Shown here: in pieces, positions 2,459-45,216 of the stretch
Layout: every line of letters begins with the position of its first letter
How positions within the stretch are numbered: position 1 is the first letter of the stretch
IMG/VR virus record: IMGVR_UViG_2799113093_000010
Length of the DNA stretch: 64,000 nt
Reading direction: 5' to 3' (one strand)
From: a virus
Lineage: Duplodnaviria; Heunggongvirae; Uroviricota; Caudoviricetes
The notes under the pieces: model-generated
The model's input: the letters and a program-made list of their open reading frames with translations, nothing else
What the model was told of the DNA's origin: nothing
Databases searched by the model: none
Position numbers and translations under genes: made by a program

Positions 2459-3558
2459 TAGACCGGGACCACCAGAATGAACAGCTGGGCGTTGGCCTTG
2501 TCGAACATGTACGCGCCCGGCGAGCCGTCGTTGTACAGGTTCACGTAGACGGTGCCGGCGTTCCCGGTGTGGTTCGCCGTCACCAGGCCGAGGGTGTTGT
2601 CGGGGGTGATCGCTGCGACCGGGTCGGTGGGTGAGGACGCGTGCGGCGACATCTGCGCCCACTGGGAGGTGTTACCGAAGCCGCGCGCGATCAGCGGACC
2701 AGAGGTGGGGTTACCGAGGCGCACCTCGCAGCCGATGATGAATGGGTCCGAATTCAGCTGCACGCCAGTGGCCTTGACCTTGCCCCACACCATCGGCTTC
2801 CAGTTGAACGGCTGCGCCGGGATCGCGAAGCTGCCGATCGGTGCGCGGGTGGAGACGCCCTGGAAGTTGGTGAACGCGGCCTCGGGCACTGTGAAGGGGC
2901 GAGGAAGGATCGCGCCCACGTCGAGCGGTGCCCACTTGGTGCCGTTGAACGCCAGCACCTGGCCAAGCCGCGGCGGGGTGGTCATGTCCACGTCGGGCGC
3001 CGACGCGATGTTCGTGGACGGACCGACCGGGCCGCGCGGGACCCGCAGATGCGCGATCACCGACGGCGTGTACGGGGAACCGGACTGCGACATGTACGAG
3101 TCCTGCGCACCGTCGGGGTCCAGAAGCTCAACACCCCAAGTGATTTCAGGGACAGGACCGACAGGCCCTTGAGAGCCCATCATCAGCACCTTGTAGTGGT
3201 CGCCGAACCACACGTATGCGCGGGACCCGACCATTACCGGTGGGTCACCCTCGTAGTGGTTCATGACCCAGTACTTGCCGATGTCTTCCTCGGTGTTCGT
3301 GAGGTTGGTGGGTAGGTCCTCGGGGTCGTCGATGGTGGACAGCTGCAGCCGCATCGCGAACGCGTTCTGCCCGGCCGGCCCCTGCGGACCCACCAGGGCA
3401 GGGATGGTGAGAGTCGCCTGATCGCCGGAGATTTCGATGGTGGCGCTGAAGCCGTCCGGTGTTTCGCCGTCGGACAGCACCGCGAACACGTGCGTGGTCG
3501 TCGTGATCGACTTCAAGTACTGCATCAGCCCGAGAGTTGGGGCCACAGGAGCGCTCAT
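2458..3558 (-). CDS. minor tail protein (366 aa)
   Basis: Long GC3-biased ORF in the tail gene block downstream of the tape measure gene; Gly/Pro-rich repeats (PQGPAGQ). Confidence 0.5.
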   Translation of the reverse strand: MSAPVAPTLGLMQYLKSITTTTHVFAVLSDGETPDGFSATIEISGDQATLTIPALVGPQGPAGQNAFAMRLQLSTIDDPEDLPTNLTNTEEDIGKYWVMNHYEGDPPVMVGSRAYVWFGDHYKVLMMGSQGPVGPVPEITWGVELLDPDGAQDSYMSQSGSPYTPSVIAHLRVPRGPVGPSTNIASAPDVDMTTPPRLGQVLAFNGTKWAPLDVGAILPRPFTVPEAAFTNFQGVSTRAPIGSFAIPAQPFNWKPMVWGKVKATGVQLNSDPFIIGCEVRLGNPTSGPLIARGFGNTSQWAQMSPHASSPTDPVAAITPDNTLGLVTANHTGNAGTVYVNLYNDGSPGAYMFDKANAQLFILVVPV

Positions 3559-4164
3559 CTAGTAGTCCTCCGGTCGTGGTTCGATGACTTCGCGGACCTT
3601 CGCGACGGTGTGCCATTCGGCGACCACCGGTACTTCTTCGCCGTCTCGGCGAGCAGCTGCACCGCGGACGTCGGGCGGCCGGAGCCGGTCGCCGCTGAAA
3701 TCGCCTGGCTGCAGATCGCGTTCGACGTCGTCGGGGGCCTTCACGTCCACCCACGTGCATGCGTTCTCGTACACCCCGGGGCCGTTGACGCGCCGCTTCT
3801 TGATCAGCGCCGGCGCCGAGCGACGAAACCCGTATAGCGCTGCCGTCCAGGCGATCCCGAGGGTGCCGGCGGTCATGGCGTTCAGGTCGTGGACGGTGCC
3901 GTTCTGATCGACTGGGTACTCCATGACCTCCAGCAGCTCCAGATAGGCGCGCTGGATGTCGCGCATGTCGGCGACTTTGGCGGCCTTGTCGCGGTCGAGT
4001 CCGGCCGCCAATCCGACTGCCATATCTGGGTCGTCCCAGTCCTCGCAGTCGTCGGCCTCCTGGCATACCGCGAGGTCCCGTTCGGACAGGAGCGTCCCGC
4101 GGCTGTCGCGCTCGGCACCGATCTGCCACACCGGGACCGGCTGCGGCTCTTGGTATTCGGTCAA
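3559..4164 (-). CDS. minor tail protein / hypothetical (201 aa)
   Basis: ORF with acidic N-terminus, position in the tail block, and 4-nt overlap with the upstream gene. Confidence 0.4.
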   Translation of the reverse strand: MTEYQEPQPVPVWQIGAERDSRGTLLSERDLAVCQEADDCEDWDDPDMAVGLAAGLDRDKAAKVADMRDIQRAYLELLEVMEYPVDQNGTVHDLNAMTAGTLGIAWTAALYGFRRSAPALIKKRRVNGPGVYENACTWVDVKAPDDVERDLQPGDFSGDRLRPPDVRGAAARRDGEEVPVVAEWHTVAKVREVIEPRPEDY

Positions 4165-5993
4165 AACAGAGTCCCCTCCCCGAGGAAGTGAGACAGGGTG
4201 GTCCAGACGGCTTGCAGGGCGCGGAGCCCGCGGGCGGTGGGGTCCTGCTTGGCGGTGTCGTCGCCGATGGACAGATGCACGGTGACTGGCTCTGTGCGCG
4301 ACCAGGTGCGGCGTATGGCGGTGATCTGGTCGGTGAAGATGATCCCGTGCTGCTCGAAGCCGGCGCGGTCCCCGAGTCCGACGTCGACGTCGACCACATG
4401 GGGTCGCCCGTTGATGACGGAGACGGTGAATCCCTGCCAGGCCCGGGTGTTGAAATGCCCCAGGCGCAGGGTGACTATCCCGGCCAGGGTGTAGGCGGTG
4501 CCGCCGCCCTTCTCGAAGTGCTCCTGCCAGGCCAGGTCGCCGACGCGGAGCGCCCGCATCGGATCAGTAAATCTTTGCCAAGCAAAAAGGGTGTTGTCCA
4601 GCTGCCCTTGGTAGAGGTTGTCGAGTCCCTCGCTGCCGTACTGCTGGTAGGCGCCGATTCCGTAGCTGATGACCTGCGCCAGTTGCGAGAGCGCGTACCT
4701 GATCGCGAACGTCTGGGCCTGGTTGACGATCTGCGGGCTGCGAGAGCCCGTCATGATCGTCTTGACTTCGCCCTTGTGCTGTCGACGCTCAGATTCGATG
4801 ATTCCGCTGTACTGGCCCTCGTACCAGATGGTCTTCGGCTTCTCCGGTGCGACGCCGAGAAGCTTGCGGAACAGCGGATCAGTCTCGCCGTCCTGATCCT
4901 GATCGAGGTTGAACAGCGTCTCGGTGATCATGTCGTCGAGCGTTGCTCCGATGAGGTTGATAACCCCGTCCGCGGCGGTGCCCGTCGGGCCGGTGACCCC
5001 CGACTTGTCCTCAACAGCAAATACAACACAGTTGCGGTGCGGGCGGGTGAGATCGTTGACCAGATCCTCGGCAACGGTGCCGCGCGCCAGGTCCACCAGT
5101 TCGGTGTGCGGGGAGTCCTCGTCCTCCTCCAGCCAGGTGTATGCCCGGAAGCCGCAGCCGGCGTCCTTGAGCATGTCGTCCATCGCCGAGTGCCAGTCGG
5201 TCCACGCGGCGCCGATCACCGACAGCCGGGACTGGTCCAGCAGTGGGTTCACGAACGCCACCTGCAGCGGCCACGACAGGGGGTCCAGGCCGGTGATGCC
5301 GCCGTTGATCCAGGCGAACGGGTTGAACGCGTTGGTGGGGATCGACAGCAGCGGGAAGAACAACCGGGCCAGGTTGATGAACATCGAAATCGACAGGATG
5401 GTGCGGGTGTTGCCCGGCAGCACCCACATCTTGGGCAGCTGAATTTCCGGTGGAAAAACTGGATTCGCTGCGAACAGAAGGTTTTTCGCGTGCTGGCGGT
5501 TGGAGATCGCTTCCAGCTCCAGGGTGTGGATGCCGGAGCTGTCGCGCTTGGCGATGACGCCGGTGACCTTGCCGCCCCAGCGGGTGCGCCACGACGTCTG
5601 CGTCGGGATCGGGTCGACGACGAGGTGCAGGTCCTCGTGGATCTTCGTCTGCTGCAGGATGAACTCGGTCAGCCAATTGTCGTATCGGATAACGCAACTG
5701 GCCTGCCCTGAGTCCGTCCATAGCTCCTCGACGGAGGCCTGACGCTCGCCCTGGACCTGGGCGACCTGCTTCATGTTCTTGTCGAACAGCCGCACCAAAG
5801 GCCTCTGCCGCGAAGCTGATTCGATGACGTCGCGGCGCCCGCGCAGATACCGGTACGCCGACATCGGGTCCAGATCGGGGTTCGGCTTGTCTTTCTGGCC
5901 GACCATTCCCTTCCAGGACTTGTCGAGCCAGCGCGTGAACTCAAGCGGCGCGGTGATCAGTCCGTGATCGACGCCGTCGAGCAGAGTGCTCAC
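4161..5993 (-). CDS. minor tail protein (610 aa)
   Basis: Large ORF immediately after the Dit-like gene. Its size and position fit a Tal-like tail tip protein. Confidence 0.5.
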   Translation of the reverse strand: MSTLLDGVDHGLITAPLEFTRWLDKSWKGMVGQKDKPNPDLDPMSAYRYLRGRRDVIESASRQRPLVRLFDKNMKQVAQVQGERQASVEELWTDSGQASCVIRYDNWLTEFILQQTKIHEDLHLVVDPIPTQTSWRTRWGGKVTGVIAKRDSSGIHTLELEAISNRQHAKNLLFAANPVFPPEIQLPKMWVLPGNTRTILSISMFINLARLFFPLLSIPTNAFNPFAWINGGITGLDPLSWPLQVAFVNPLLDQSRLSVIGAAWTDWHSAMDDMLKDAGCGFRAYTWLEEDEDSPHTELVDLARGTVAEDLVNDLTRPHRNCVVFAVEDKSGVTGPTGTAADGVINLIGATLDDMITETLFNLDQDQDGETDPLFRKLLGVAPEKPKTIWYEGQYSGIIESERRQHKGEVKTIMTGSRSPQIVNQAQTFAIRYALSQLAQVISYGIGAYQQYGSEGLDNLYQGQLDNTLFAWQRFTDPMRALRVGDLAWQEHFEKGGGTAYTLAGIVTLRLGHFNTRAWQGFTVSVINGRPHVVDVDVGLGDRAGFEQHGIIFTDQITAIRRTWSRTEPVTVHLSIGDDTAKQDPTARGLRALQAVWTTLSHFLGEGTLF

Positions 5994-7003
5994 CGGGAGC
6001 GCTTGTACCTCTGCGGCAAAATGACGGTGATCTTCGCTTGGGGGTCGGAGTGCTTCACCCGGATCTGGGCGATGGTCTTGGGAGCGACGCCTGACATGAA
6101 CCGCTTGTCGAACCGCTTCCAGATCGGCTCACCAGAGGCGGCCAGGTCGTGCAGGAAGAAGTCGAGAATCTTTGACTGCCTGGCGATCTTGTAGAAGATG
6201 TTGTCGACCGGGTCGTTGGATGCGGTCAGCGTGCGGGCAGTCGGATCAGTGTCCACGAGCACGTAGCCGTCGTTGGCCGTGATCAGCGGCAGCGGCACCA
6301 TACGGTCGCTGTTCCCGTCCTCCACCCAGCAGGTGCCGGGCGGCACGATGAACTGGGGGTACGAGGTGAGGTCGCCGCGGTTGGCAAGCGTCACAACGCC
6401 TTCGCCGCCGCCTGTGAAGTGTGCGGCGTTCTCGTGGGTGTTCTGCCAGGTCTTCCAGAAGCTCGGCTTGCTGTAGTAAGGCTTCTGCGCGATCCACGTC
6501 AGATTCCACGAGGCGAAGTTGTTGCCGAACGCGACTGGGTCCCGCTTCTGGCTGCCGCTGACGGTCTTCGCCGGCCGCACCCGAAGCCACCTCCACCCGG
6601 AGTAGCGGGTGTACACGCCGAGCCAGCCGTCGCGTTCTTCGTCTTGGCCTTGCCACCAACGGGATTCGGCCATCCGGTACTGGTAGTTGTTGTACGGGAT
6701 GGCGCGGCCACCGATCTTCACGCCGAGGTTGATTTCACGCTTGAGGACGTTGACGCGTTCCACGGTGGCGCCCATCTCATAAGCGCCCTCGGACAGCAGC
6801 AGCTCGAACGGCCAGTGGTGCTCGCCGTCGAACTCCTCCGCGAGATGCACGCCCTGGCGACCGGCGAGCGGGCCGCCATACAGGTCGTAGCGGAACCCGT
6901 CCGGGGTGATGTACATGAGGCGGGTTTCCAAGCCCTGCAACGCAGGCCGCAGCTTGTCCCAGTCGTCGTAGGCGGCAAGCTCGGCCTGGCGGATGAATCT
7001 CAA
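5990..7003 (-). CDS. minor tail protein, distal-tail (Dit)-like (337 aa)
   Basis: First ORF after the tape measure gene, with a 4-nt overlap. This is the typical position for a distal tail protein. Confidence 0.5.
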   Translation of the reverse strand: MRFIRQAELAAYDDWDKLRPALQGLETRLMYITPDGFRYDLYGGPLAGRQGVHLAEEFDGEHHWPFELLLSEGAYEMGATVERVNVLKREINLGVKIGGRAIPYNNYQYRMAESRWWQGQDEERDGWLGVYTRYSGWRWLRVRPAKTVSGSQKRDPVAFGNNFASWNLTWIAQKPYYSKPSFWKTWQNTHENAAHFTGGGEGVVTLANRGDLTSYPQFIVPPGTCWVEDGNSDRMVPLPLITANDGYVLVDTDPTARTLTASNDPVDNIFYKIARQSKILDFFLHDLAASGEPIWKRFDKRFMSGVAPKTIAQIRVKHSDPQAKITVILPQRYKRSR

Positions 7004-28383: not shown

Positions 28384-28779
28384 TCAGCGACGGCGCTGGG
28401 CGACCGTGTGTAGGGCGAGTAGCGCGCCAGCAAGACCCGGGGCATCGACGATCGGGATCCGCGACGGGAACCCTGCAAGAGCGAGCCGGTTGTCCTGGTC
28501 GATGAACACCTCGCCGTCCGCGCACGGCTGCTCACTCAGCGGCACCCGCACTGACCAGCCTCCGTACCCGTCTGGGTCGATGTTGGGCAGCTGCACCAGC
28601 ACGTAGCCCTCACTGGCGAGCAGCGCCGGCAGGACGGAGGCGATCCGGTCGGCGACCTCGTCGGCCGAGCGGACATGCATGTAGGCCGGAGGGTCGCTGA
28701 TGAAGCGTGGTGTGACGTGGCGGCTCACCAGATCGGGTATGCCTGCGATCAGCCGGGTCAGCACCGCGCGGGCCGTCAT
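28384..28779 (-). CDS. hypothetical protein (131 aa)
   Basis: Coupled (4-nt overlap) immediately downstream of the nucleotidyltransferase gene. Confidence 0.45.
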   Translation of the reverse strand: MTARAVLTRLIAGIPDLVSRHVTPRFISDPPAYMHVRSADEVADRIASVLPALLASEGYVLVQLPNIDPDGYGGWSVRVPLSEQPCADGEVFIDQDNRLALAGFPSRIPIVDAPGLAGALLALHTVAQRRR

Positions 28780-29603
28780 GGACTGGTTGTACTCGCCCCC
28801 ACCGACAGGCCACCGACCTCAGCGGCAGGCGTCGCCCAGTGCTCCGTGTACATGTCAACGAGCCAGTCGTCGACCTTCGCCCAGTTGGCTTCCTCGGGCA
28901 GGTCGGCCGTGTTGACCAGATGCTCAAGGTCGCAGGTGATCTCGTCGAGCCGGTCCATCACCTCACGAAGTGACACTTCGCCAGCCCGGACCCGCAGCAG
29001 ATACTCGCGGTGCTCGGCGAGCATCGGCAGGTTGACCCGACCGTCCCGCATCGCTTCGCATCCCTGCAGCCCGAGGCGGATCGCGTGGTAGGCGTACTTG
29101 GTGTCGAAGCCGTACTGGGCGACCAGCTCGGGCCGGTTGGTATGCCGGTGGTGGGTTCCCTCGATCCCGCCACGCTGGCGGTTCAGGTAACCCAGGAAGC
29201 GCTCGCCGGCTGCCTTCGTCACGAACATGTCCGATGCTGCCTGCAGCTGCTCGCCGGCGCGGGTTCTGGTCACGACCTCCGCGTCCGGGAGCCACAGCAG
29301 CAACAGCACCGTCGGATTGCCTGCGGCGGCCAGCCTTGTCCACTTCCGCAGCGAGTAGATGACCAAGTCGAGGTCACCCGGTCCAGAGCGGGCTCCGTCA
29401 GGCTGCGTGCGGTAGATGTACTGCTCGAACTTCTCCAGGCCGATCACGGCCTCGGCTGGTTCGATGCAGATACCCATCTCGTCGCGGTCATCGTCACCGG
29501 TCGTGACGCCGTGCAGGCCAGAGCCGACCTGCCCGAGCAGGATGGTGTTGGCGACCGCGATCTCCCGGTGCCGTGGTGTTCCGTGCCGCTCTTCGGTGCT
29601 CAT
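28776..29603 (-). CDS. Pol-beta superfamily nucleotidyltransferase (275 aa)
   Basis: N-terminal signature LGQVGSGLHGVTTGDDDRDEMG (GS...DxD) plus a third acidic strand (DLDLVIY) about 40 aa later. Confidence 0.6.
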   Translation of the reverse strand: MSTEERHGTPRHREIAVANTILLGQVGSGLHGVTTGDDDRDEMGICIEPAEAVIGLEKFEQYIYRTQPDGARSGPGDLDLVIYSLRKWTRLAAAGNPTVLLLLWLPDAEVVTRTRAGEQLQAASDMFVTKAAGERFLGYLNRQRGGIEGTHHRHTNRPELVAQYGFDTKYAYHAIRLGLQGCEAMRDGRVNLPMLAEHREYLLRVRAGEVSLREVMDRLDEITCDLEHLVNTADLPEEANWAKVDDWLVDMYTEHWATPAAEVGGLSVGASTTSP

Positions 29604-31671: not shown

Positions 31672-32108
31672 TGGCCCTCCCTGATGAGCGCGGCCAGCAG
31701 GGTGGCTGTCTCCGCAATGACGTCGAGTGAGATGGCCATGGCTTCGTCGATGCTGTTGGGGTTCTGCTGGAGAGTGCTGGCCGCTGCGGCGAGACTGCTG
31801 ATGCCGCCCACTATCAGCGCCCGACGTTCTATGGCCGCCGCCTTCGGGTCATCAGCCCGGTACAGATAGACGGAGTCCGCATAGGCGTAATCGTTGGCGC
31901 GGCGCCGGAAGTGGTCGTCCTTCTGGTCGTAGTCGGCGCGTCGGAAGCGGAGCAGTTCCTTGTCGTCGGCGTCGACCACCACGATGTCCCGGGCGAGGAT
32001 GCGGGCTACGGTGCCACGTTTGACGATGCTGGTGTAGTAACGCCGGTCCTGCACCTGGATGACTTCGGCGCCGACGGTCATCCAGTCCGGCAGTCCGTCC
32101 GCACTCAT
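31668..32108 (-). CDS. hypothetical protein (about 146 aa)
   Basis: ATG at 32108 (MSADGLPDW...) overlaps the upstream stop (ATGA). Confidence 0.4.
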   Translation of the reverse strand: MSADGLPDWMTVGAEVIQVQDRRYYTSIVKRGTVARILARDIVVVDADDKELLRFRRADYDQKDDHFRRRANDYAYADSVYLYRADDPKAAAIERRALIVGGISSLAAAASTLQQNPNSIDEAMAISLDVIAETATLLAALIREGQ

Positions 32109-32320
32109 GGACGGTCCTTGACGATCTGGGCGATCAGCTCCGGTGAGCAGCCAACCGCGCCGGCGAGCGACGCGTACGTCCACTCGGATCGCTTCTCGGC
32201 CCACAACTCGCGCACCAGGTCGTTGCGCTGGGTCCGGTGCTGACGCGCCACCTGCGACGAGTCGAACGACATCCGGTGATGCTCGCGGGCCTGCTGAGCA
32301 CGTGGGTCCACCGTCACCAC
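32105..32320 (-). CDS. small helix-turn-helix protein (71 aa)
   Basis: HTH-like segment TYASLAGAVGCSPELIAQIV. Confidence 0.45.
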   Translation of the reverse strand: MVTVDPRAQQAREHHRMSFDSSQVARQHRTQRNDLVRELWAEKRSEWTYASLAGAVGCSPELIAQIVKDRP

Positions 32321-33042
32321 CCGAACTCGGTGGGCACGTACACCTGGGTTTGGGAGCGTATGAAATCCGACTCGCGGGGCGGCTGGTCGGACTCAGTAAC
32401 CCGGATCAGGAGCCGCCAACCGCGGGTCTTGGCTGCAGTCGCGGTGTGGATGTTCCACCAGTCCCACGACAGCCACTGGCCGGGCGCGGCGTCCAGGAAG
32501 TCGTGATCGTCCAGGTGCTCGGCGGCGTTCACCGCCTCCGACATCTCGCGGTACAGGCCCGAGTCCTCGCCGTGCTCCAGCCCGATGATGAACGGGCAGC
32601 GCATGAACCGGGTTGGGCAGTCGTTACCGACATGGATGGTGTGGAACCGCGGCGCATACCCCCGAGACTCCAGGTCCGCTTGAATCGACAGCGACGGCGC
32701 ACCCGTGTTCGAGGCGCTCGCCGACATCAGGCTTGCCTCGTGGTCCGTATCGCCGACCCGGCGTGGCACGCCGTCGGTGTGCCAGCCCGGGATCGCAGGG
32801 ATGAACCCGGGCAGCAGCATCGACACCTTCGTATCGACATGCACGTGCTTGTGGTCGCCGACGATCGGTGCCTGCTCCAGACAGCGGCGCACCGCGGGTC
32901 CCCCGAACAGAAGCGCGTTCTCCAGGCTCGCGCGCTCCAAGTTCGGGGTCGCCGGGATGCACATCAGGTCGCGGAACCCGAACACGTCGGTAACCGACGG
33001 TCCGAGTTCCACCGGCGTGACGTTGAACGTGTACGACTTCAC
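32314..33042 (-). CDS. putative Fe(II)/2-oxoglutarate dioxygenase (PhyH-like), paralog A (about 242 aa)
   Basis: GTG at 33042 overlaps the Ro60 stop (GTGA). Motifs GWHTDG (HxD), distal FHTIHVGN, and an Arg about 9 aa later. Paralogous to 42247..42954. Confidence 0.45.
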   Translation of the reverse strand: MKSYTFNVTPVELGPSVTDVFGFRDLMCIPATPNLERASLENALLFGGPAVRRCLEQAPIVGDHKHVHVDTKVSMLLPGFIPAIPGWHTDGVPRRVGDTDHEASLMSASASNTGAPSLSIQADLESRGYAPRFHTIHVGNDCPTRFMRCPFIIGLEHGEDSGLYREMSEAVNAAEHLDDHDFLDAAPGQWLSWDWWNIHTATAAKTRGWRLLIRVTESDQPPRESDFIRSQTQVYVPTEFGW

Positions 33043-34766
33043 AGGTCGCCGCGGGAGAAATCGGCCAGCAGCTGCGGCACTGCGGAGTCGAACCCGGACA
33101 CGTCGAGCTGCCCCGGGTCGGTCGGATCCGCGATGCTGTTGCCGGTCGCGGTCATCGCGACAACCACCAGGCGTGCATCGATGCCCATGGTGTCCCGGTA
33201 CTCGCGGAGCGCCTGGTGCGGATGCATCGACCCGTAGAACGTCTCGTTGTCGGTGTAGACGTGGAACGTGTCGATCTCGATCCGGTTCTTGCGCGCCCAG
33301 ATCATCGGCAGCGCGCAGTCGGTGTTCCCGAAGTCCAGCTCGCCGGTGTAGCGGCACACGTCGTCGAGACGCCGGCGCGGGGTGATGTCCAGCGGCGCCA
33401 CCGCCGTCGCATACCCGCGGAAGTGGCCGGTGCGCGAATGCACGTAGCTGCCAGGCCCGGCGGTGAAGCCGATGATCTGGTGATCCGTCTCGACGTTGGC
33501 AGTGACCAGCGCCAGGGCGGCTGCGGCCTCGCGGCACGACACCGGCAGCCCGGACACCGACCGCGTCATCGACCCGGACACGTCCAGAGCCAGCAGCGTC
33601 CGCTTACCGGCAGGCTCGACCGCGCCATAGGCGTTGTAGAACGCGGCATCGAGCGCGTCGACGATCCGCGCCACCGGCATCCAAGTGGAGTCGCCGCGCG
33701 CCGAGTGGCCCGACGCGTAGGTGCGCAGCGCCACCAGCGCGTTGATCGGATGCACGCGGCCCTTCCGCAGCCGCTCGGAGTCCTGCAGCTGCGCGGCGAC
33801 CTTGTTCCCGATGGTGCCGGCGAGGACACCGAGGCGAGTCAGGCGCGGCAGCTGCCGCATCAGCGCAGTCTGGGGCAGACCGTGCTCGATCAGCGCCTCC
33901 CACACCTCCGGCTTGGTGAGCGCGGCGTCGGGCAGCGCCTCCCACGGAAGAGCGTTGCCACGCTTGATGATCTTCACCCAGTCCCGCGCCGTGGTGGCAC
34001 GCTGCGCGTCCTCGAAGTCGGCGATGATCGCCAGCGGGTGGCCGTCGCTCAGCTCGATATCGGGCAGCTTGGGGCGTGCGGTGTTCCGGTCGCCGGCCTT
34101 CAGCTCGTCCGGGTTCAGCTCGCGGACCTTGTCGGCGTAGTCGTTGAGGCCCTTGCCGACAGCCCAGTTGAACGCGAGGCGCCGCGCCGGGTCCTTCGTG
34201 ACGGGCGAGGAGAGCCGCAGCAGGTCGCGGTGCATCCATCCCTCGCGCTGCCGGTACTTGACCAGCTGGTAGGCGACACGGTCGACGCCCTTGTCCAGAT
34301 ACCAGGAGCCGACCGCACGCTTCATCGCCGGACCCCAGCCACGGAACTGCTCCATGTACTTCACGAACAGGTACAGGTGGGTGCCGGTGCGCGCCACGCT
34401 GGGCAGAGCGGCAGCCGCGGCGCGGCGTCCCTCCACGTCATCGGAGGCTGCGGCGACCGCGAGCGCGAACAGCGCCGGGTTCTGCTTCGGCGCCCGGCCA
34501 GCGACCGACACCTCCACGATGTGCTGCACCAGCCGCACCGGATCCGCGGCGGCGGCACGGAACACCACCTCGGCGTTCTCCCGAGTCAGCTCGGCCGCGT
34601 TGGTGTAGTAGGTGCCGCCGTCGGTACCCAGCGTCAGGAACCGGTGCAGCCTCACCTCGTCGGACACCGCGAACGCGAACCCGCCGGCCGCGTTCTTCAC
34701 CTGCCGGGGGTCCGCCTTCACCGTCTGCGCGGTGCGGCGGGTGCTGATCGTCGAAAGAACGTCCAT
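33039..34766 (-). CDS. rsr: Ro60 ortholog (Rsr): TROVE domain plus C-terminal vWA domain (about 575 aa)
   Basis: TROVE-like N-terminal region (MDVLSTISTRRTAQTVKADPRQVKNAAGGFAFAV..., HLYLFVKYMEQFRGWG). vWA MIDAS motif LALDVSGSMT. RBS CAGAGGAGA before the ATG at 34766. The 115-aa upstream extension in the track ORF overlaps the ncRNA array and is rejected. Confidence 0.8.
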   Translation of the reverse strand: MDVLSTISTRRTAQTVKADPRQVKNAAGGFAFAVSDEVRLHRFLTLGTDGGTYYTNAAELTRENAEVVFRAAAADPVRLVQHIVEVSVAGRAPKQNPALFALAVAAASDDVEGRRAAAAALPSVARTGTHLYLFVKYMEQFRGWGPAMKRAVGSWYLDKGVDRVAYQLVKYRQREGWMHRDLLRLSSPVTKDPARRLAFNWAVGKGLNDYADKVRELNPDELKAGDRNTARPKLPDIELSDGHPLAIIADFEDAQRATTARDWVKIIKRGNALPWEALPDAALTKPEVWEALIEHGLPQTALMRQLPRLTRLGVLAGTIGNKVAAQLQDSERLRKGRVHPINALVALRTYASGHSARGDSTWMPVARIVDALDAAFYNAYGAVEPAGKRTLLALDVSGSMTRSVSGLPVSCREAAAALALVTANVETDHQIIGFTAGPGSYVHSRTGHFRGYATAVAPLDITPRRRLDDVCRYTGELDFGNTDCALPMIWARKNRIEIDTFHVYTDNETFYGSMHPHQALREYRDTMGIDARLVVVAMTATGNSIADPTDPGQLDVSGFDSAVPQLLADFSRGDL

Positions 34767-34793
34767 CGGTGTCTCCTCTGAAATGCGGGTGGG

Positions 34794-34902: not shown

Positions 34903-35047
34903 GCGGTGTGGGCGTGTGTTTGCCGACCGGTGTTTTTAGGCGTCCTAGGCCGCTGGACGACGGGGCCGCTATGCAGTCCCGGCAGGATTCGAACCTGCGT
35001 ATCCCGCTCCCGATGCGATAACCGATTGAGCGTCCTGCTCACACCGC
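34903..35047 (-). ncRNA. Y-RNA-like tRNA-mimic ncRNA, unit 3 (YrlA-like)
   Basis: Read on the minus strand it shows, in order: a 5' helix strand with GAGCAGGACGC...CGGUUAUC; a T-arm GCAGG-UUCGAAU-CCUGC; a capped acceptor-like hairpin; a D-arm GUCC-AGCGGCCUA-GGAC; and a 3' strand (CACCGGUCGG...CACACGCCCACACCGC) complementary to the 5' end. Confidence 0.5.
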
Positions 35048-35063
35048 TACGCGACGTTTGTGG

Positions 35064-35205
35064 GGTTGATGCGGGCGTGTGTGTGCTGACCGGGGTTAAG
35101 TGCTCTGCCAACTGAGCTACAGCCGCGAAGCGACTGACGGGACTCGAACCCGCGACCTCTCCATTAGAAGTGGATAACCGACCTGCGTCCTGCTCGCATC
35201 AAACC
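35064..35205 (-). ncRNA. Y-RNA-like tRNA-mimic ncRNA, unit 2 (YrlA-like)
   Basis: T-arm CGCGGG-UUCGAGU-CCCG. Acceptor-like 7-bp hairpin CAGUCGC-UUCG-GCGGCUG with a UUCG tetraloop. D-arm UAGCUCAGUUGGCAGAGCA. Its termini pair (GGUUUGAUGCG / CGCAUCAACC). It carries the conserved GCAGGUCGGUUAUCC motif. Confidence 0.55.
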
Positions 35206-35222
35206 GCTATTGAGTTGTCTGA

Positions 35223-35358
35223 GGATGGCGTGGGCGTGTGGAGTGCTGACCGGTGTTTGATCATTGCTCTGCCAGTTGAGCTATACCCCGCGAGCGGGGT
35301 AGCGGGATTCGAACCTGCGACGGTGATAACCGACCTGCGTTCTGCTCACGCCATCCGC
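35223..35358 (-). ncRNA. Y-RNA-like tRNA-mimic ncRNA, unit 1 (YrlA-like)
   Basis: T-arm GCAGG-UUCGAAU-CCCGC. Perfect 7-bp acceptor-like hairpin UACCCCG-CUCG-CGGGGUA. D-arm UAGCUCAACUGGCAGAGCA. Terminal helix GGAUGGCGUG / CACGCCAUCC. GGUCGG / CCGGUC pairs with G-U wobbles next to GUUAUC. Confidence 0.55.
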
Positions 35359-39909: not shown

Positions 39910-40469
39910 GACTCACCGCATCCCGCGTCGCCGAACTCATCCCACGGGACGAACCGGTCAACGTAGTGGCGCGGCGACGCACCCGGCCACGCAGGTCCGC
40001 TGCACCAGAAGCCCCACAGCCGGGTACGCGGCCCAGTGACGATCAACGTCCAGCAGGGCAGCGCGCGTAGGCGCGGCCGGATACGGGTGCGCTCCACGGA
40101 CGTGGCCGGCGCCTTGACCAGCTCGACGCGGTGCCGCCATAACGCCGGCCGGAATACCAGCGGGCGGTCGCCCCAGAACAAGCGCCATAGCTCCGGTGCC
40201 GACCGAACCGAGCGGCCGTCGTCGGTGACCTCGATGTACTGCCCCCACAACACCAGCGACAGAAACCACCACGGATGGTCATGAAGCGCCCGGTCATCGT
40301 CGTCGCGTAGGAACTTGTGGAGGTAGACGTTCAGCCAACGGTTCCTCGGGATCACGTACCAGCGCAGCAGGTACGGGGGTTCGCCTTCCGAGCCGATGGG
40401 CTGGTGGGGTTCCAGCCGGACCCACTTCCGCAGCCATCGGTGGTTGTTCGGTCCTGTGGTGGTGCTCAT
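39906..40469 (-). CDS. hypothetical protein (about 187 aa)
   Basis: Start MSTTTGPNNHRWLRKW...; Trp-rich. The upstream 118 aa of the track ORF are P/R-rich junk. Confidence 0.4.
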   Translation of the reverse strand: MSTTTGPNNHRWLRKWVRLEPHQPIGSEGEPPYLLRWYVIPRNRWLNVYLHKFLRDDDDRALHDHPWWFLSLVLWGQYIEVTDDGRSVRSAPELWRLFWGDRPLVFRPALWRHRVELVKAPATSVERTRIRPRLRALPCWTLIVTGPRTRLWGFWCSGPAWPGASPRHYVDRFVPWDEFGDAGCGES

Positions 40470-40638
40470 CGGTTCTCCTTGGCTGCTGGTTGGTTGGGTC
40501 GTTGCTTCTGGTGCAGTGGCATCACGCCGTCGCGGCGGATCCGGTACGAGCGCTGGCAGGTTGGGCAGTAGGCGCGGCCTTTGCGCGGTCGGGTGAGCGG
40601 GACCTTGCCGCTGCCGGCGCATACCTCGTCGCGGGCGT

Positions 40639-41283
40639 TCACCGCTGGTCCTGGAGGCGCCCGAAGGCGCGGAGCACGGCAGCGGCGGCCTCAACGGAGT
40701 CCCACGCGGAACGGTCTCCGCTGTTGCGGTCCGGGTGGGCTCTAGCTCGTGCGGCTCGGTAGACCTTGTCGAGCGGCGAATTTTTGTCGCCAGCGGCAAG
40801 CCGGAGGTGGAGTTCAGCGTCATCGGCGGATTGGCCTCCGGGGGCTGGAGCTCCTGCGGAAGGGAGTTGCTTCCACCCGTCGTACTGCTGCCCGGTTTGG
40901 GTGACGCCGTAACGGTCCACCTTGCGGAGCGCTTCGAGCGCGAGGGCGATGGCGCGGAGGTTGTCCTGCCAGTTGGTGAACGTGTCGCAGGGGAACGACA
41001 GTGGTCCTGTGCGGGATTCGATGTTCAGGATGACGCCGGGGTGCTCGGGTTTGGCTGTGGCGCGGGGCATCCCGTCGATACGGAAGTCTTGCTCGCGCAT
41101 CGCGATTTGGAGGATGGCTGGCGCGTTCTGCCTGCCGCTTCCGAGGTACCAGAGTTCCCGGTCGAGCAGGTTGAGGGTTTCGCTCCACTGCGCGGAGAAG
41201 TTCGAGCGGCGGCGTTCCTGGGTGAGCTGGTGCGGCCAGGCGGTGATCGGGCGCAGGGTCATGTTCGTGGGGTAGCTCGTCAT
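40639..41283 (-). CDS. J-domain (DnaJ-like) protein (about 214 aa)
   Basis: C-terminal J-domain with HPD motif (KVYRAARARAHPDRNSGDRSAWDSVEAAAAVL). ATG at 41283 overlaps the stop of the initiator-like gene (ATGA). Confidence 0.6.
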   Translation of the reverse strand: MTSYPTNMTLRPITAWPHQLTQERRRSNFSAQWSETLNLLDRELWYLGSGRQNAPAILQIAMREQDFRIDGMPRATAKPEHPGVILNIESRTGPLSFPCDTFTNWQDNLRAIALALEALRKVDRYGVTQTGQQYDGWKQLPSAGAPAPGGQSADDAELHLRLAAGDKNSPLDKVYRAARARAHPDRNSGDRSAWDSVEAAAAVLRAFGRLQDQR

Positions 41284-42218
41284 GCGGACTCCTTGGGTGC
41301 TTCGGGGTTGCATTGGCAGCGGCGGAGGCTGTCGTGGTCGTTGTCGATCCAGCCGCGTCCCCCGCAGTCGGTGCAGGCGGCGATGCGGGCGCGGCGTTCG
41401 GCTTTCTCGCGGGCGGGGCGTTCGGCGTCCCAGGCTTCGCGGCGTTCGCGGTGGCGCTGGCATGCGCGGCACGGGTCGTCGGTGCCGCCGGGGTGCTTTG
41501 GGCAGAATTCGGGGGGCGGCGCGGAGCGCTCCCCAACCCAGGTACCTACGGAAGGTGAGATAACACCCTGACCCTCACCCTGACCCGACCCTGAGGCGAA
41601 CCCTTCTCCAAAGGGTTTCGGGAAGGGTTCCATTTCCCCAGGTGGCGGAAACCCTTCCGATAACCCTTCATCAAAGCCTTCTGTAAAGGGTTCAGGAAAG
41701 GGTTCCGATAACCCTTGGGTAAGGGTTCCCAAGTGCGCCAACGCTTCCGCGTGTGCCCGCTTCAAGTTGTCACGGAGCTTCACTGCCTTCGGGCTTTCGC
41801 CCGCGATGGAGGGCAGCGGTACTCGCTCCAGCTCCTCGGCGAGGATGTACGCGAGTTTCGGCGACTCCACGTGGCCCGCCGAGCGGAGCGCGGACAGCAT
41901 CACGTTGGGCTGCTTTCCGACCTCGTCTCGGCGCATGAACGACCGCACCAAGGTTTCCCCGGTGTCCTCGTCGGTGAACACGTACCGGCTGCGCTCCAGC
42001 CGGACCAAGGCCTCCTCGACGGCCGACTCCTGGGGTATGCGCCCGCGCTGGCGGAGGGCCTTCCGCCAGCGCCGCATGTTGATCGGCTGCACCCCGGCGT
42101 AGTTCATGGCCGGTTGTGCGATCAGCACACAGAACAGGAGCTTGTCGAACACCTCCTGCGCGCAGAAGTCCTCATCGGTCCACATCGAGAACCACATGCG
42201 CCCGTACTCGCGAGGCAC
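41280..42218 (-). CDS. putative replication initiator-like protein with internal repeat-encoded linker and C-terminal zinc ribbons (about 312 aa)
   Basis: GTG start at about 42218 after the RBS GGAAGGGGAG. N-terminal globular domain. Low-complexity linker EPFPEPFTEGFDEGLSEGFPPPGEMEPFPKPFGEGF encoded by the repeat array at 41560-41730. C-terminal Cys pairs CPKH...CRAC and CTDC...CQC. Confidence 0.45.
   Translation of the reverse strand: MPREYGRMWFSMWTDEDFCAQEVFDKLLFCVLIAQPAMNYAGVQPINMRRWRKALRQRGRIPQESAVEEALVRLERSRYVFTDEDTGETLVRSFMRRDEVGKQPNVMLSALRSAGHVESPKLAYILAEELERVPLPSIAGESPKAVKLRDNLKRAHAEALAHLGTLTQGLSEPFPEPFTEGFDEGLSEGFPPPGEMEPFPKPFGEGFASGSGQGEGQGVISPSVGTWVGERSAPPPEFCPKHPGGTDDPCRACQRHRERREAWDAERPAREKAERRARIAACTDCGGRGWIDNDHDSLRRCQCNPEAPKESA
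41599..41727. repeat. iteron-like array: 9 copies of AAGGGTT/AACCCTT in both orientations; extended consensus GGAAGGGTTCC
   Basis: Copies at 41599, 41611, 41623, 41650, 41662, 41686, 41698, 41710 and 41721. An adjacent CCCTGA hexamer tandem lies at 41566-41594. Confidence 0.7.
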
Positions 42219-42246
42219 TACCGCTCCCCTTCCGTCTTGTTGTTGT

Positions 42247-42954
42247 TCACCAGCCGAACTCCGTGGGTACATACACCTGCGTCTGGGACCGGATGAATCC
42301 CGAATCCAACGGGGGCTGGTCTGATTCCGTCACCCGGATGAGGAGCCGCCATCCACGCCAATCCGCAGGCGTCGCGGTGTGGACGTTCCACCAATTCCAC
42401 GAAAGCCACTGCTCCAGAGGAGAATCCAGATACGCGCCTCGCTCGGAATATGGCGCGCTCTCAACCTTTTGTGACAGTTCGCGATACAGGCCCGAGTCCT
42501 CGCCATGTTCCAGGTCAACGACCCACGGTTTGCGCATGAACCTTGTTGGGCAGTGGTTTCCGACATGGATGGTGTGGAACCGGGGCCGGTACCCCTTCGC
42601 ATCTTGGGCGCCCTGAGCCTTCATAGATGGAGGGCCAGCGTTGAACGGTGATCCGACCTGCTCCGTTACGGTGTGGAGACGTGGGACGCCATCGGTGTGC
42701 CAGCCCGGTATCGCCGGGATGAAGCCCGGCAGCAGCAGAGATACCTTCGTGTCCACGAACACGTGCTCGTGGTCACCGACTATCGGGGCTTGCTCCAAGC
42801 AGCGCCGCACCGCAGGGCCACCGAACAGCACCGCGTTCTGCAGGCTCGCGCGCTCCAGGTTTGGTGTGGCCGGCAGGCACCCCCGCTCCTGCGCGTAGAA
42901 CTCGACGTGCGCGCCGTGCTTTGGCGGCTCAACGTTGAATGTGTAGGCGGTCAC
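42247..42954 (-). CDS. putative Fe(II)/2-oxoglutarate dioxygenase (PhyH-like), paralog B (about 235 aa)
   Basis: GTG at 42954 overlaps the upstream stop (GTGA). Motifs GWHTDG, FHTIHVGNHCPTRFM. About 70% aa identity to 32314..33042, with near-identical 3' ends. Confidence 0.45.
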   Translation of the reverse strand: MTAYTFNVEPPKHGAHVEFYAQERGCLPATPNLERASLQNAVLFGGPAVRRCLEQAPIVGDHEHVFVDTKVSLLLPGFIPAIPGWHTDGVPRLHTVTEQVGSPFNAGPPSMKAQGAQDAKGYRPRFHTIHVGNHCPTRFMRKPWVVDLEHGEDSGLYRELSQKVESAPYSERGAYLDSPLEQWLSWNWWNVHTATPADWRGWRLLIRVTESDQPPLDSGFIRSQTQVYVPTEFGW

Positions 42955-43388
42955 CGGACTACCTGCCACGGCTTGTCGTCGCGGACCTTCCAGCCGAGGC
43001 CGGGGAGCTCGGGCCCACTTTCGACTTCCACCTGCTTGTCGCTCGGCGGCTGGACCACGAGCCATGTCAACCTCTGTTCAGCGTCCGAGTAGTAGCGGCG
43101 GGCGAAGCGCCCGTCCCCGTGGGTAGCGACGGTGCCCTCGGGCAGGCCCAGCCGGGAGGTGTTGATGGCGCAAAGGATTACGCGGAGGACCTCGGCGCGG
43201 CCTGCATAATGAAGGCCGCCGTTCGCCTGGTTGCAGTTGGCCTTCAGCCAAGCTCCGGTGAGTAGCTTGTCCAGCGCGATCGTGGCCGCCAGTCTCTCGC
43301 GGTCGTTGATGGTGACGCGGCCATCTAGATACCCCGGGGTGTTGTCGGTCTGTTGTTCTGCGGCGGTGATCATTTCGCTGAGGTCCAT
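42951..43388 (-). CDS. hypothetical protein (about 145 aa)
   Basis: RBS CAAGGAGAACCC before the ATG at 43388. Confidence 0.45.
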   Translation of the reverse strand: MDLSEMITAAEQQTDNTPGYLDGRVTINDRERLAATIALDKLLTGAWLKANCNQANGGLHYAGRAEVLRVILCAINTSRLGLPEGTVATHGDGRFARRYYSDAEQRLTWLVVQPPSDKQVEVESGPELPGLGWKVRDDKPWQVVR

Positions 43389-43437
43389 GGGTTCTCCTTG
43401 GTCGATGCTGTTGTCCGTCGGGCATGTCGGCGGCGCC

Positions 43438-43758
43438 TCATCGCGGAACCCAATGGATGAGTCCCTGCCAGGTGCTGCGGTATTCGTCAACGGCCTTCTG
43501 CGCCCGGTCGCGGCTCCAGTCGCAGGACTTCCACCACTCGACGGCGTGCCACACGCTGCGAAGGTCCTTCAGGGGAGCGGCTTCCCAGTCGGCGTGCAGC
43601 TGGTTGAAGCGATCAACCAGCGCCCGGGTGTCCCGAGCAGCTCGACTACCAGGAAACGATGCGTCGAGAGTGTCAGCCATCTCATGCAAGCTGCCCATGG
43701 CTCCCAGGACGTCGTCGAGGTCCTTGCAGTACAGGTAGTCGAAGCTGCCGCCGCTCAC
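43438..43758 (-). CDS. hypothetical protein (106 aa)
   Basis: Protein-like, Trp-rich ORF. Confidence 0.45.
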   Translation of the reverse strand: MSGGSFDYLYCKDLDDVLGAMGSLHEMADTLDASFPGSRAARDTRALVDRFNQLHADWEAAPLKDLRSVWHAVEWWKSCDWSRDRAQKAVDEYRSTWQGLIHWVPR

Positions 43759-44586: not shown

Positions 44587-45216
44587 TCACCACTCGGCTC
44601 CCAGCTGCTCGATGCCTTCGGCGAGCACGTCGATGTTGACCGGCGACATGTGCCAGGCGTCCACGCCGACATGGAGCTGCCGCTGGTGCACGTGCGGCAG
44701 GAAACTCGACCGAGAATGGGTGTGCCCGTGCAGCAGCCACTCGCCCTCGTCCCGAAGCCGATACTGGTTGTACCGCTGCTCCGTGGTGTGGTCGCCGCGG
44801 TACGGCAGATGCGACAGCAGCGCAGTGTGGCCGCCGACACGGCGCCGCGCGAACGGCTGCACCGAATGGAACACCTCCAGGTACAACGGCTGCCACTTGT
44901 GGGCGTCCCGATACATGGGGTGCACCCGGTCGTGGTTGCCGGGCACGAGGTGCTTCTCGCCGGGCCGGGCCGCGATCCATTCCAGCGCGTTCCGTTGTGC
45001 TGCTGACGATCCGGCACTGATGTCGCCCAACACCCACACCTGATCGCCAGGCTGAACAACGGCGTCCCAGTTGTGGGCGAGCAGGCCGTCGTTCCAAGCG
45101 ACCGCAACGTCCTGGGACATCTTCCAGGAGAGAAGGACACCAGCTCGCTCGGCGCGATCCAACGCCACCAGCAGATGTCCGATATGGAGGTCGGAGGTGA
45201 ACCAGACAGTCGTCAT
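44587..45216 (-). CDS. calcineurin-like metallophosphoesterase (209 aa)
   Basis: Motifs WFTSDLHIGH, GDISAG, GNHD and GHTH. Confidence 0.75.
   Translation of the reverse strand: MTTVWFTSDLHIGHLLVALDRAERAGVLLSWKMSQDVAVAWNDGLLAHNWDAVVQPGDQVWVLGDISAGSSAAQRNALEWIAARPGEKHLVPGNHDRVHPMYRDAHKWQPLYLEVFHSVQPFARRRVGGHTALLSHLPYRGDHTTEQRYNQYRLRDEGEWLLHGHTHSRSSFLPHVHQRQLHVGVDAWHMSPVNIDVLAEGIEQLGAEW

What the first reader, a model, noticed from the sequence alone, without database searches (positions are those of the whole stretch)
32314..33042. Two diverged paralogous putative Fe(II)/2OG dioxygenase genes, one translationally coupled to Ro60
32314..33042 and 42247..42954 encode about 240-aa proteins that are about 70% identical, with near-identical 3' nucleotide ends. 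Both carry GWHTDG (an HxD motif like the WHxD of PhyH/EctD-type enzymes), a distal His in FHTIHVGN, and an Arg 8-11 residues later. That is the classic 2-His-1-carboxylate plus 2OG-anchoring Arg pattern. Copy A starts with GTGA overlapping the Ro60 stop, so it is co-expressed with Rsr and the Y RNAs. One speculative reading is that a dioxygenase coupled to an RNA-binding Ro module is an RNA or nucleotide oxidative modifying or demodifying activity, like AlkB or a hydroxylase. Copy B sits 9 kb away, just upstream of the replication-initiator-like gene. The two copies could also act as a substrate for recombination that inverts or deletes the intervening 9 kb.
Basis: partly seen in the sequence, partly recalled or inferred. 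Interest (0 to 1): 0.65.

Follow-up and report, generated by a model that had tools for sequence, protein, structure and literature searches.

The report
Two phage 2OG-oxygenase-like paralogs
A Mycobacteroides abscessus prophage carries two diverged copies of a widespread, unnamed phage gene that very probably encodes an iron/2-oxoglutarate-dependent oxygenase. The copy next to the Ro60 RNA-binding gene is a one-lineage mosaic insertion, not a conserved Ro partner, so the finding is real but fairly ordinary.

Summary
Both ORFs exist on the minus strand: A 32314-33042 (242 aa) and B 42247-42954 (235 aa). They are 67% identical in protein (E 6e-120) and under purifying selection (dN/dS 0.22).

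They belong to PHROG 1843, an unannotated family with no Pfam or NCBIfam model. It has about 980 representatives at 50% clustering and occurs in actinophages, T4-like, Aeromonas, Bacillus and jumbo phages.

FHTIH and R145 are not conserved.

The 3' ends are not near-identical in nucleotides: 77% identity, longest exact run 23 nt. The copies are direct repeats, so recombination could delete but not invert.

The GTGA overlap with Ro60 is real. Copy B has the same overlap with its own upstream gene, as do most junctions here.

Sister prophages carry one copy, in the copy-B position. Ro60 lies within 10 kb in 5 of 96 family loci and is never adjacent. The substrate is unknown. A hint of RNA-repair linkage (RtcB in cluster M and Gordonia phages) remains untested.

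The parts
32314..33042 (-). Copy A, 242 aa 2OG-oxygenase-like protein (identical to P0001). GTG start in a GTGA overlap with the Ro60 stop. Its stop overlaps the start of the next 71-aa ORF.
32773..32781 (-). Copy A codons H88-T89-D90, the invariant HxD metal-binding motif
   Evidence: read from the sequence; invariant in A1 and A2
32413..32448 (-). Copy A codons H199 to R210: distal His on strand VII and the 2OG-binding Arg 11 residues later on strand VIII. R214 is at 32401-32403.
42247..42954 (-). Copy B, 235 aa paralogue (P0008 cluster). GTG start in a GTGA overlap with the upstream ORF. Keeps H86-x-D88 (42691-42699), H192 (42379-42381) and R203 (42346-42348).
33039..34772 (-). Ro60 orthologue (TROVE + Ro60 vWA domains), immediately upstream of copy A
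34921..35347 (-). Three YrlA-like (Y RNA) matches, all below the Rfam gathering score: 35240-35347 (34 bits), 35095-35161 (39 bits) and 34921-35016 (20 bits). They lie upstream of Ro60. A promoter-like hexamer pair sits at 35470-35443.
32105..32320 (-). 71-aa ORF directly downstream of copy A. Its homologue directly follows Ro60 in prophiGD43A-5 (gene 53), which has no dioxygenase gene between them.
28776..29603 (-). RlaP-family nucleotidyltransferase (PF10127), same strand, 2.7 kb downstream of copy A
41280..42272 (-). Replication initiation protein (phrog_3171) directly downstream of copy B. The true start is probably a few codons inside this ORF.
42951..43490 (-). 179-aa ORF upstream of copy B, conserved in this position in sister prophages
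44587..45216 (-). Metallophosphoesterase, a recurrent neighbour of the family in actinophages (35 of 96 loci)

Best explanation
Both ORFs are functional paralogues of a large, unnamed phage protein family (PHROG 1843). The family is a very divergent branch of the Fe(II)/2-oxoglutarate-dependent oxygenase superfamily.

Inferred mechanism. Fe(II) is held by H88, D90 and H199 (copy A numbering). The C5 carboxylate of 2OG is bound by R210 on strand VIII, with R214 nearby. 2OG is decarboxylated to give an Fe(IV)-oxo species that hydroxylates a substrate. The invariant Asp rather than Ala/Gly points to a hydroxylase or oxidase, not a halogenase.

Substrate. It is not identified. The family is found in phages of Actinobacteria, Proteobacteria and Firmicutes, so it must be something common to many bacteria. 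My split is: small molecule or nucleotide about 40%, RNA about 20%, protein about 20%, other about 20%.

Origin of the two copies. They are not a recent in-genome duplication. Copy B is the resident gene in the conserved position (metallophosphoesterase, two small ORFs, oxygenase, replication initiator). Copy A is an allele from the sister prophage clade (prophiGD43A-5-like) that was inserted as a single-gene mosaic module between Ro60 and the small ORF that normally follows it.

Co-transcription of copy A with Ro60 is likely. Functional dependence on Ro60 and the Y RNAs is not indicated.

Shown: the ORFs, paralogy, purifying selection, fold, residue conservation, synteny and phylogeny. Inferred: metal and 2OG binding, catalysis, co-transcription.
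For: Fold:
- AF2 model pLDDT 91.2, pTM 0.88.
- Foldseek gives the same kind of hits.

Motif:
- In 102 homologues down to 24% identity, the only invariant columns are L76, H88, D90, H199, R210 and R214.
- H199 lies on the strand at 199-201 and R210 on the strand at 208-218.
- hhalign against a YbiX profile aligns H199 with H158 and R210 with R168.
- A few members give faint Pfam hits to HalD, 2OG-FeII_Oxy_5 and PhyH.

Both copies are maintained: dN/dS 0.22, dS 1.15.

Origin:
- In an NJ tree, A groups with P0002-P0005 and B with P0006, P0007, P0009 and P0010.
- These relatives carry one copy, in the copy-B position.
- Window 43141-40264 is 96.7% identical to L022. Copy A matches the GD43A-5 gene only within the ORF limits.

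Ro60 independence:
- Ro60 is within 10 kb in 5 of 96 loci and never adjacent.
- The Ro-adjacent arrangement is seen only on contigs carrying P0001 itself.
Against: - There is no significant sequence-level link to any curated 2OG family. Pfam and NCBIfam are empty. PDB profile searches are empty. hhalign probability is only 35%.
- No biochemical data exist for any member that I could find.
- Homologues lie 0.4-3 kb from RtcB and tRNA arrays in cluster M and Gordonia phages. Together with copy A's place between Ro60 and RlaP, this leaves room for an RNA-related role that I rate as the less likely option.
Confidence: 0.72

Rival explanations
1. Copy A, and perhaps the whole family, is an RNA-directed oxygenase that works with Ro60, the Y RNAs and other RNA-repair enzymes. 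It would be, for example, an AlkB-like oxidative demethylase or a tRNA hydroxylase.
For: - 4-nt overlap with Ro60, with YrlA-like RNAs upstream and RlaP 2.7 kb downstream on the same strand and no terminator-like site on that strand between them.
- In 15 loci from cluster-M-like mycobacteriophages and Gordonia Smoothievirus/Yvonnetastic, an RtcB RNA ligase lies 0.4-3 kb upstream of the homologue, often after an 18-22 tRNA array.
- 32 of 96 loci have a tRNA or tmRNA within 10 kb.
Against: - Orthologues in sister prophages are not next to Ro60.
- 91 of 96 loci have no Ro60 within 10 kb.
- RtcB occurs in 617 phage records, including 221 Mycobacterium phage records, against only 33 Mycobacterium phage records with the family. 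Most RtcB phages therefore lack it.
- T4-like and other contexts show no RNA-repair neighbours.
- The family is mildly acidic: median pI 6.2, copy A pI 5.4 with net charge -10.5. This is unlike typical nucleic-acid oxygenases.
- There is no match to the AlkB Pfam model, and the hhalign alignment to AlkB is meaningless.
- The Arg spacing is R-x3-R, not AlkB's R-x5-R.
- tRNA co-location has no base-rate control.
Confidence: 0.17
2. The protein is a hydroxylase of the prolyl-hydroxylase / PKHD type that modifies a conserved host protein, such as a translation factor or ribosomal protein.
For: - The only sequence-profile alignment with any signal is to YbiX, a PKHD-type hydroxylase (E 4e-4).
- The broad host range of carrier phages fits a universal protein target.
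Against: - No PF13640 hit in any of 102 members.
- No conserved partner or target gene lies nearby.
Confidence: 0.15
3. The two copies are mainly a recombination substrate, and the intervening 9 kb is inverted or deleted by recombination between them.
For: Two homologous segments of about 710 bp lie 9.2 kb apart.
Against: - Same strand, so only deletion or duplication is possible, not inversion.
- 70% nucleotide identity and a longest exact run of 23 nt.
- The interval carries Ro60 and the replication initiator.
- Both copies are under purifying selection.
- None of the 96 related loci shows a second family copy within 10 kb, and no hybrid gene was noticed.
Confidence: 0.02
4. The proteins are catalytically dead cupin-fold proteins with a structural or binding role only.
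For: - No curated enzyme family matches.
- Tandem-duplicated relatives carry a second repeat that has lost the HxD.
Against: H88, D90, H199 and R210 are 100% conserved in 102 diverse members, and both window copies keep them. That pattern is not expected without catalysis.
Confidence: 0.04

Closest known systems
PhyH/EctD-like small-molecule Fe(II)/2OG oxygenases (ColD 8xpf, EvdO2 4xac, ThoJ 6zyl, SnoK 5epa, EasH 4nao, EctD 4nmi, PhyH 2a1x)
   Same: - Double-stranded beta-helix core.
- W-H-x-D motif.
- Distal His followed 11 residues later by the 2OG-binding Arg.
- Single domain of about 230-280 aa.
   Different: - 8-13% identity for these seven hits.
- No PF05721 hit; 1 of 102 members at E 0.05.
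- A family-specific N-terminal segment (A43, G47, G48), a 95-131 insert, and a strictly conserved C-terminal R229-x-Q-x-x-V-Y...G-W end.
- Phage-borne, with no biosynthetic cluster around it.
Prolyl-4-hydroxylase / PKHD-type hydroxylases (PHD 6t8m, PPHD 4iw3, E. coli YbiX, PiuC 9qn0)
   Same: - HxD...H...R(+10/11).
- hhalign aligns the distal His and the Arg with those of YbiX.
   Different: - hhalign probability is only 35%, and only the C-terminal half aligns.
- No PF13640 hit.
- No known protein substrate.
AlkB family nucleic-acid demethylases (AlkB 3khb, ALKBH2/3/5)
   Different: - No PF13532 hit.
- Different Arg spacing (R-x3-R against R-x5-R).
- Acidic rather than basic.
- The hhalign alignment is meaningless.
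Phage TET/JBP 5-methylpyrimidine dioxygenases (5mYOX; PMC13229309)
   Same: Phage-encoded Fe(II)/2OG dioxygenases.
   Different: - No PF12851 hit.
- No C5-methyltransferase, ParB or glycosyltransferase turned up in the neighbourhoods inspected.
Bacterial rsr-yrlA-rtcBA RNA-repair operon
   Same: Ro60 with tRNA-like Y RNAs upstream and an RNA-repair nucleotidyltransferase (RlaP) nearby. This matches the known pattern of Y RNAs next to Ro60 in bacteria and mycobacteriophages (PMC4201824).
   Different: No RtcB or RtcA in the window. A 2OG oxygenase is not a described component of that operon, and the adjacency is confined to one prophage lineage.

Membership tests
Fe(II)/2-oxoglutarate-dependent oxygenase superfamily | Double-stranded beta-helix (jelly-roll) core fold | tested here: met
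   [not shown]
Fe(II)/2-oxoglutarate-dependent oxygenase superfamily | Conserved 2-His-1-carboxylate triad, HxD/E...H | tested here: met
H88, D90 and H199 are invariant in 102 homologues down to 24% identity.
Fe(II)/2-oxoglutarate-dependent oxygenase superfamily | Basic residue binding the 2OG C5 carboxylate about 10 residues after the distal His, on strand VIII | tested here: met
   R210 (H199 + 11) is invariant and lies in strand 208-218. It aligns with YbiX R168.
Fe(II)/2-oxoglutarate-dependent oxygenase superfamily | Triad side chains converge on one metal site in three dimensions | not testable with these tools
   Model coordinates are not exposed. Only secondary structure and fold matches were available.
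Fe(II)/2-oxoglutarate-dependent oxygenase superfamily | Fe(II)-dependent oxidative decarboxylation of 2OG | not testable with these tools
   Needs biochemistry.
PhyH (PF05721) | Match to the family profile at its gathering score | tested here: not met
   No hit for A or B even at E <= 10. 1 of 102 members at E 0.05.
AlkB (2OG-FeII_Oxy_2, PF13532) | Profile match and the R-x5-R 2OG/substrate motif | tested here: not met
   No Pfam hit. The family has R210-x3-R214. hhalign to E. coli AlkB gives probability 0.3%.
TET/JBP 5mYOX (PF12851) | Profile match; neighbouring C5-methyltransferase, ParB or glycosyltransferase | tested here: not met
   No Pfam hit. No such neighbours in the loci inspected.
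P4H / PKHD hydroxylases (PF13640) | Profile match | tested here: inconclusive
   No Pfam hit. hhalign to a YbiX profile gives probability 35%, E 4e-4, over the distal His-Arg half only.
PHROG 1843 (function unknown) | Full-length profile match | tested here: met
   E 3.6e-63 (A) and 6.2e-60 (B), covering 2-222 of 222 profile positions.
Ro60 / Y RNA RNA-repair module | Conserved genomic linkage of the gene with rsr across lineages | tested here: not met
   Ro60 within 10 kb in 5 of 96 loci, all one prophage group, at about 9 kb and never adjacent. Adjacency occurs only on P0001 contigs.

The most novel reading that the evidence does not exclude
In actinobacteriophages this oxygenase family is a so far unrecognised component of RNA-repair or tRNA-maintenance modules. 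It is placed next to RtcB and tRNA arrays in cluster M and Gordonia phages, and between Ro60/Y RNA and RlaP here. It would oxidatively remove a damaging or toxin-installed modification from tRNA or tRNA-like RNA. Copy A would then be a paralogue specialised for Ro60/Y-RNA-bound substrates.
Probability: 0.13. Interest if true: 0.75.

Novelty: new member of a known kind. Interest (0 to 1): 0.36.

Why it matters
The family is large: about 980 clusters at 50% identity, found in 458 phage records including many T4-like coliphages. It has no Pfam model and no known function.

Recognising it as a probable Fe(II)/2OG oxygenase with a defined active site (H88, D90, H199, R210) gives annotators a usable label. 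It also gives experimenters four residues to mutate.

If the RNA-repair linkage seen in actinophages proved functional, it would add an oxidative step to phage tRNA-repair systems. As it stands, this is a fold-level annotation of an accessory phage gene plus a case of gene-sized mosaicism. It is not a new kind of system.

Tried and rejected
Searches that gave nothing:
- Pfam, NCBIfam and PDB sequence or profile searches gave nothing significant.
- A second homologue search with the A2 profile returned only unannotated proteins.
- hhalign of the family profile against single E. coli TauD and AlkB sequences was uninformative. The TauD alignment did pair the WHTD motifs, but at E 0.11.
- A YbiX homologue search gave only sequences 80% or more identical, so the profile was shallow.
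- The afdb50 fold library was unavailable.
- BFVD returned only uncharacterised phage and giant-virus proteins.
- Longer family members carried no informative fused domain.
- Literature searches found nothing on this family.

Neighbourhood analysis:
- Clustering ORFs within 4 kb of the gene in 96 loci found only lineage-restricted partners: a metallophosphoesterase, and a 166-aa ORF cluster in 27 loci whose representative spans the gene annotated DUF4326 in sister prophages.

Ideas rejected:
- TET/JBP T-dioxygenases were considered and rejected.
- The recombination-substrate idea was rejected on orientation and identity.
- Recent tandem or segmental duplication was rejected: the flanks are unrelated, dS is 1.15, and the two copies fall in different clades.

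Full report
**Observation**

The window has about 65% G+C. It is a prophage of Mycobacteroides abscessus subsp. massiliense: the copy A protein is identical to P0001, which comes from that organism. The nearest deposited phage is prophiGD43A-5, about 77% nucleotide identity over Ro60.

Both ORFs are intact on the minus strand.
- Copy A is 32314-33042, 242 aa.
- Copy B is 42247-42954, 235 aa.
- BLASTP gives 67% identity and E 6e-120.
- The GTG of copy A overlaps the Ro60 TGA as GTGA.
- Copy B has the same GTGA overlap with its own upstream ORF, 42951-43490.
- Gene calls on the source contig show 4-nt overlaps at most junctions of this gene string. The overlap therefore indicates an operon, not a special partnership.

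Ro60 is a true TROVE + vWA_Ro60 protein.

Three YrlA-like matches lie upstream of Ro60 on the same strand. They score 39, 34 and 20 bits, E 9e-7 to 0.23, all below Rfam's gathering score of 69. ARAGORN finds no tRNA in the window.

**What was not confirmed**

The 3' ends are not near-identical at the nucleotide level.
- Identity is 70% over the aligned codons and 77% over the last 55 codons.
- The longest exact run is 23 nt and lies mid-gene.
- Similarity falls to background at both ORF borders.

pS is 0.59 (dS 1.15) and dN/dS is 0.22. The split is therefore old and both copies are under purifying selection.

Both copies are on the same strand. They are direct repeats and could at most mediate deletion, and they are a poor substrate for that.

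**What the proteins are**

No Pfam or NCBIfam model matches either protein, even at E 10. Both match PHROG 1843 (function unknown) end to end, E 4e-63 and 6e-60.

The family is large.
- tblastn finds it in 458 phage records: 193 Escherichia, 60 Aeromonas, 33 Mycobacterium, 26 Klebsiella, 22 Gordonia and others. Almost all are annotated as hypothetical, with an occasional 'oxidoreductase' or 'phytanoyl-CoA dioxygenase'.
- A profile search of 1.84 billion cluster representatives finds 983 at E <= 1e-3.

An AlphaFold2 model built on a 48-sequence alignment is confident: pLDDT 91.2, pTM 0.88.
- Foldseek agrees at weaker significance.

**Active site**

In 102 homologues reaching 24% identity, the only invariant columns are L76, H88, D90, H199, R210 and R214.

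H199 (WWNIH) sits on the strand at 199-201. R210 (GWRLLIR) sits on the long strand at 208-218. This is the canonical HxD...H...(+11)R arrangement of PhyH, EctD, TauD and P4H-type enzymes (established knowledge of those families).

A profile-profile comparison with E. coli YbiX homologues aligns H199 with H158 and R210 with R168. The probability is only 35% and E is 4e-4.

Position 134 is Y/I/H/L/V/F, position 137 is V/L/I, and position 145 is mostly E/Q.

So the dioxygenase assignment holds, with a corrected site.

**Origin of the two copies**

- In a neighbour-joining tree, copy A is sister to the prophiGD43A-5-like clade (P0002-P0005, 75-77% identity).
- Copy B falls with P0006, P0007, P0009 and P0010 (83-91% identity).
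- All of those relatives that could be inspected carry a single copy in the copy-B position: metallophosphoesterase, two small ORFs, oxygenase, then a replication-initiator-like gene.
- Window 43141-40264 is 96.7% identical to another M. abscessus prophage, L022.
- Copy A matches the GD43A-5 gene (77.5%) only between its own start and stop.
- In prophiGD43A-5, Ro60 is followed 6 nt later by the homologue of the 71-aa ORF, with no oxygenase gene between them.

Copy A is therefore a gene-sized mosaic insertion from a sister lineage, not a local duplication.

**Is the family linked to Ro60?**

- Among 96 loci fetched with 10-kb flanks, Ro60 is present in five. All are GD43A-5-like, Ro60 lies about 9 kb away, and it is never adjacent.
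- No locus has two copies.
- The Ro-adjacent arrangement occurs only on contigs carrying P0001 itself, about 10 contigs of one prophage.
- From the other side, Ro60 matches 182 phage records, mostly the roughly 155-kb mycobacteriophages. The family matches only 33 Mycobacterium phage records.

The linkage is lineage-specific.

**What else lies near the family**

- Clustering neighbours within 4 kb found only a metallophosphoesterase (35 loci) and a few small ORFs. All are confined to actinophages.
- In T4-like phages the gene sits among early accessory genes: between e.2 and e.3 in VR7, and between endonuclease IV and ndd elsewhere.
- Other contexts include an integrase, or NAD-salvage genes.

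One pattern deserves recording.
- In cluster-M-like mycobacteriophages and prophages, the gene lies 1-3 kb downstream of an RtcB RNA ligase, which in most of them follows an array of 18-22 tRNAs.
- In Gordonia Smoothievirus and Yvonnetastic it lies 0.4-1 kb downstream of an RtcB that is only 57-59% identical.
- 32 of 96 loci have a tRNA or tmRNA within 10 kb.
- In the window, copy A sits between Ro60/YrlA and an RlaP nucleotidyltransferase (PF10127) 2.7 kb downstream.

Evidence against an RNA-repair role:
- RtcB is found in 617 phage records, including 221 Mycobacterium phage records, against only 33 Mycobacterium phage records with the family. Most RtcB phages therefore lack it.
- I had no base-rate control for tRNA proximity.
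- The linked loci reduce to three or four independent lineages.
- The family is mildly acidic: median pI 6.2, copy A 5.4.

I therefore keep the RNA-repair reading as a minority hypothesis, about 0.15.

**Comparison with known systems**

The proteins work like PhyH/EctD/P4H-type 2OG oxygenases, but they do not meet the profile definition of any curated family. PhyH, AlkB and TET/JBP are not met; P4H/PKHD is inconclusive. Phage TET/JBP thymine and 5mC dioxygenases (PMC13229309) form a different family. Y RNAs next to Ro60 in mycobacteriophages are already known (PMC4201824), and so are RlaP and TROVE in phage RNA repair (PMC7824862).

**Verdict**

The enzymatic assignment is supported with a corrected active site. 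The Ro60 coupling is an accident of mosaicism as far as the evidence goes.

This is a new, uncharacterised member of a known superfamily, of moderate interest. It is worth a family annotation and a simple biochemical test.

Noticed in passing
window 34921-35347 (-); L001 20601-20679: Three YrlA-like Y RNA candidates lie upstream of Ro60, all below the Rfam gathering score. One overlaps a weak tRNA-model hit at 35129-35197 (20.7 bits). The homologous place in prophiGD43A-5 is annotated 'tRNA-Thr(tgt)'. That annotation is probably the tRNA-like domain of a Y RNA, not a real tRNA. ARAGORN finds no tRNA in the window.
   Followed up: partly
window 28776-29603 (-): An RlaP-family nucleotidyltransferase (PF10127, E 2e-33) lies on the same strand 3.4 kb downstream of Ro60. 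No terminator-like site on that strand lies between them, and there is no RtcB anywhere in the window. This would be a Ro60/Y RNA/RlaP set without a ligase.
   Followed up: partly
L103 (MrMagoo) 1-6717; L110 (Aphelion) 3342-5681; L009, L010, L027-L032, L034, L039, L041, L042, L044-L046: Homologues of the oxygenase lie 0.4-3 kb downstream of an RtcB RNA ligase in cluster-M-like mycobacteriophages, in most of them after an 18-22 tRNA plus tmRNA array, and in two Gordonia phage groups. In L051 the gene starts 94 nt after a 14-tRNA array. No base-rate control was possible.
   Followed up: partly
window 44587-45216 (-) and 35 of 96 related loci: A calcineurin-like metallophosphoesterase (phrog_547) is the most recurrent neighbour of the family in actinophages. 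It lies within about 1-2.5 kb on either side of the gene. Its role is unknown.
   Followed up: partly
window 40264-43141 vs L022 9814-12691: This block (copy B, the replication initiator and the next gene) is 96.7% identical to another M. abscessus prophage, while the flanking DNA is only about 70% identical or unrelated. It is a sharp mosaic boundary typical of actinophages.
   Followed up: yes
P0173, P0182 (metagenomic relatives, 455-462 aa): These are tandem-duplicated family members. The first repeat keeps HxD...H...R. The second has lost the HxD (IPIWRSG / LSAWRTG). P0173 starts with a hydrophobic segment that looks like a signal peptide.
   Followed up: no
window 40639-41472 (-): The ORF translation contains 'RARAHPDRNSGD', which looks like the HPD motif of a J domain. 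It lies just downstream of the replication initiator. It was read from the ORF list only and not tested against any profile.
   Followed up: no
BFVD hits, (ranks 15, 32, 37, 49): Several cyanophage proteins named 'DNA endonuclease V / DenV' give weak fold matches to this 2OG-oxygenase-like model. Those names may be annotation errors carried over from neighbouring genes.
   Followed up: no
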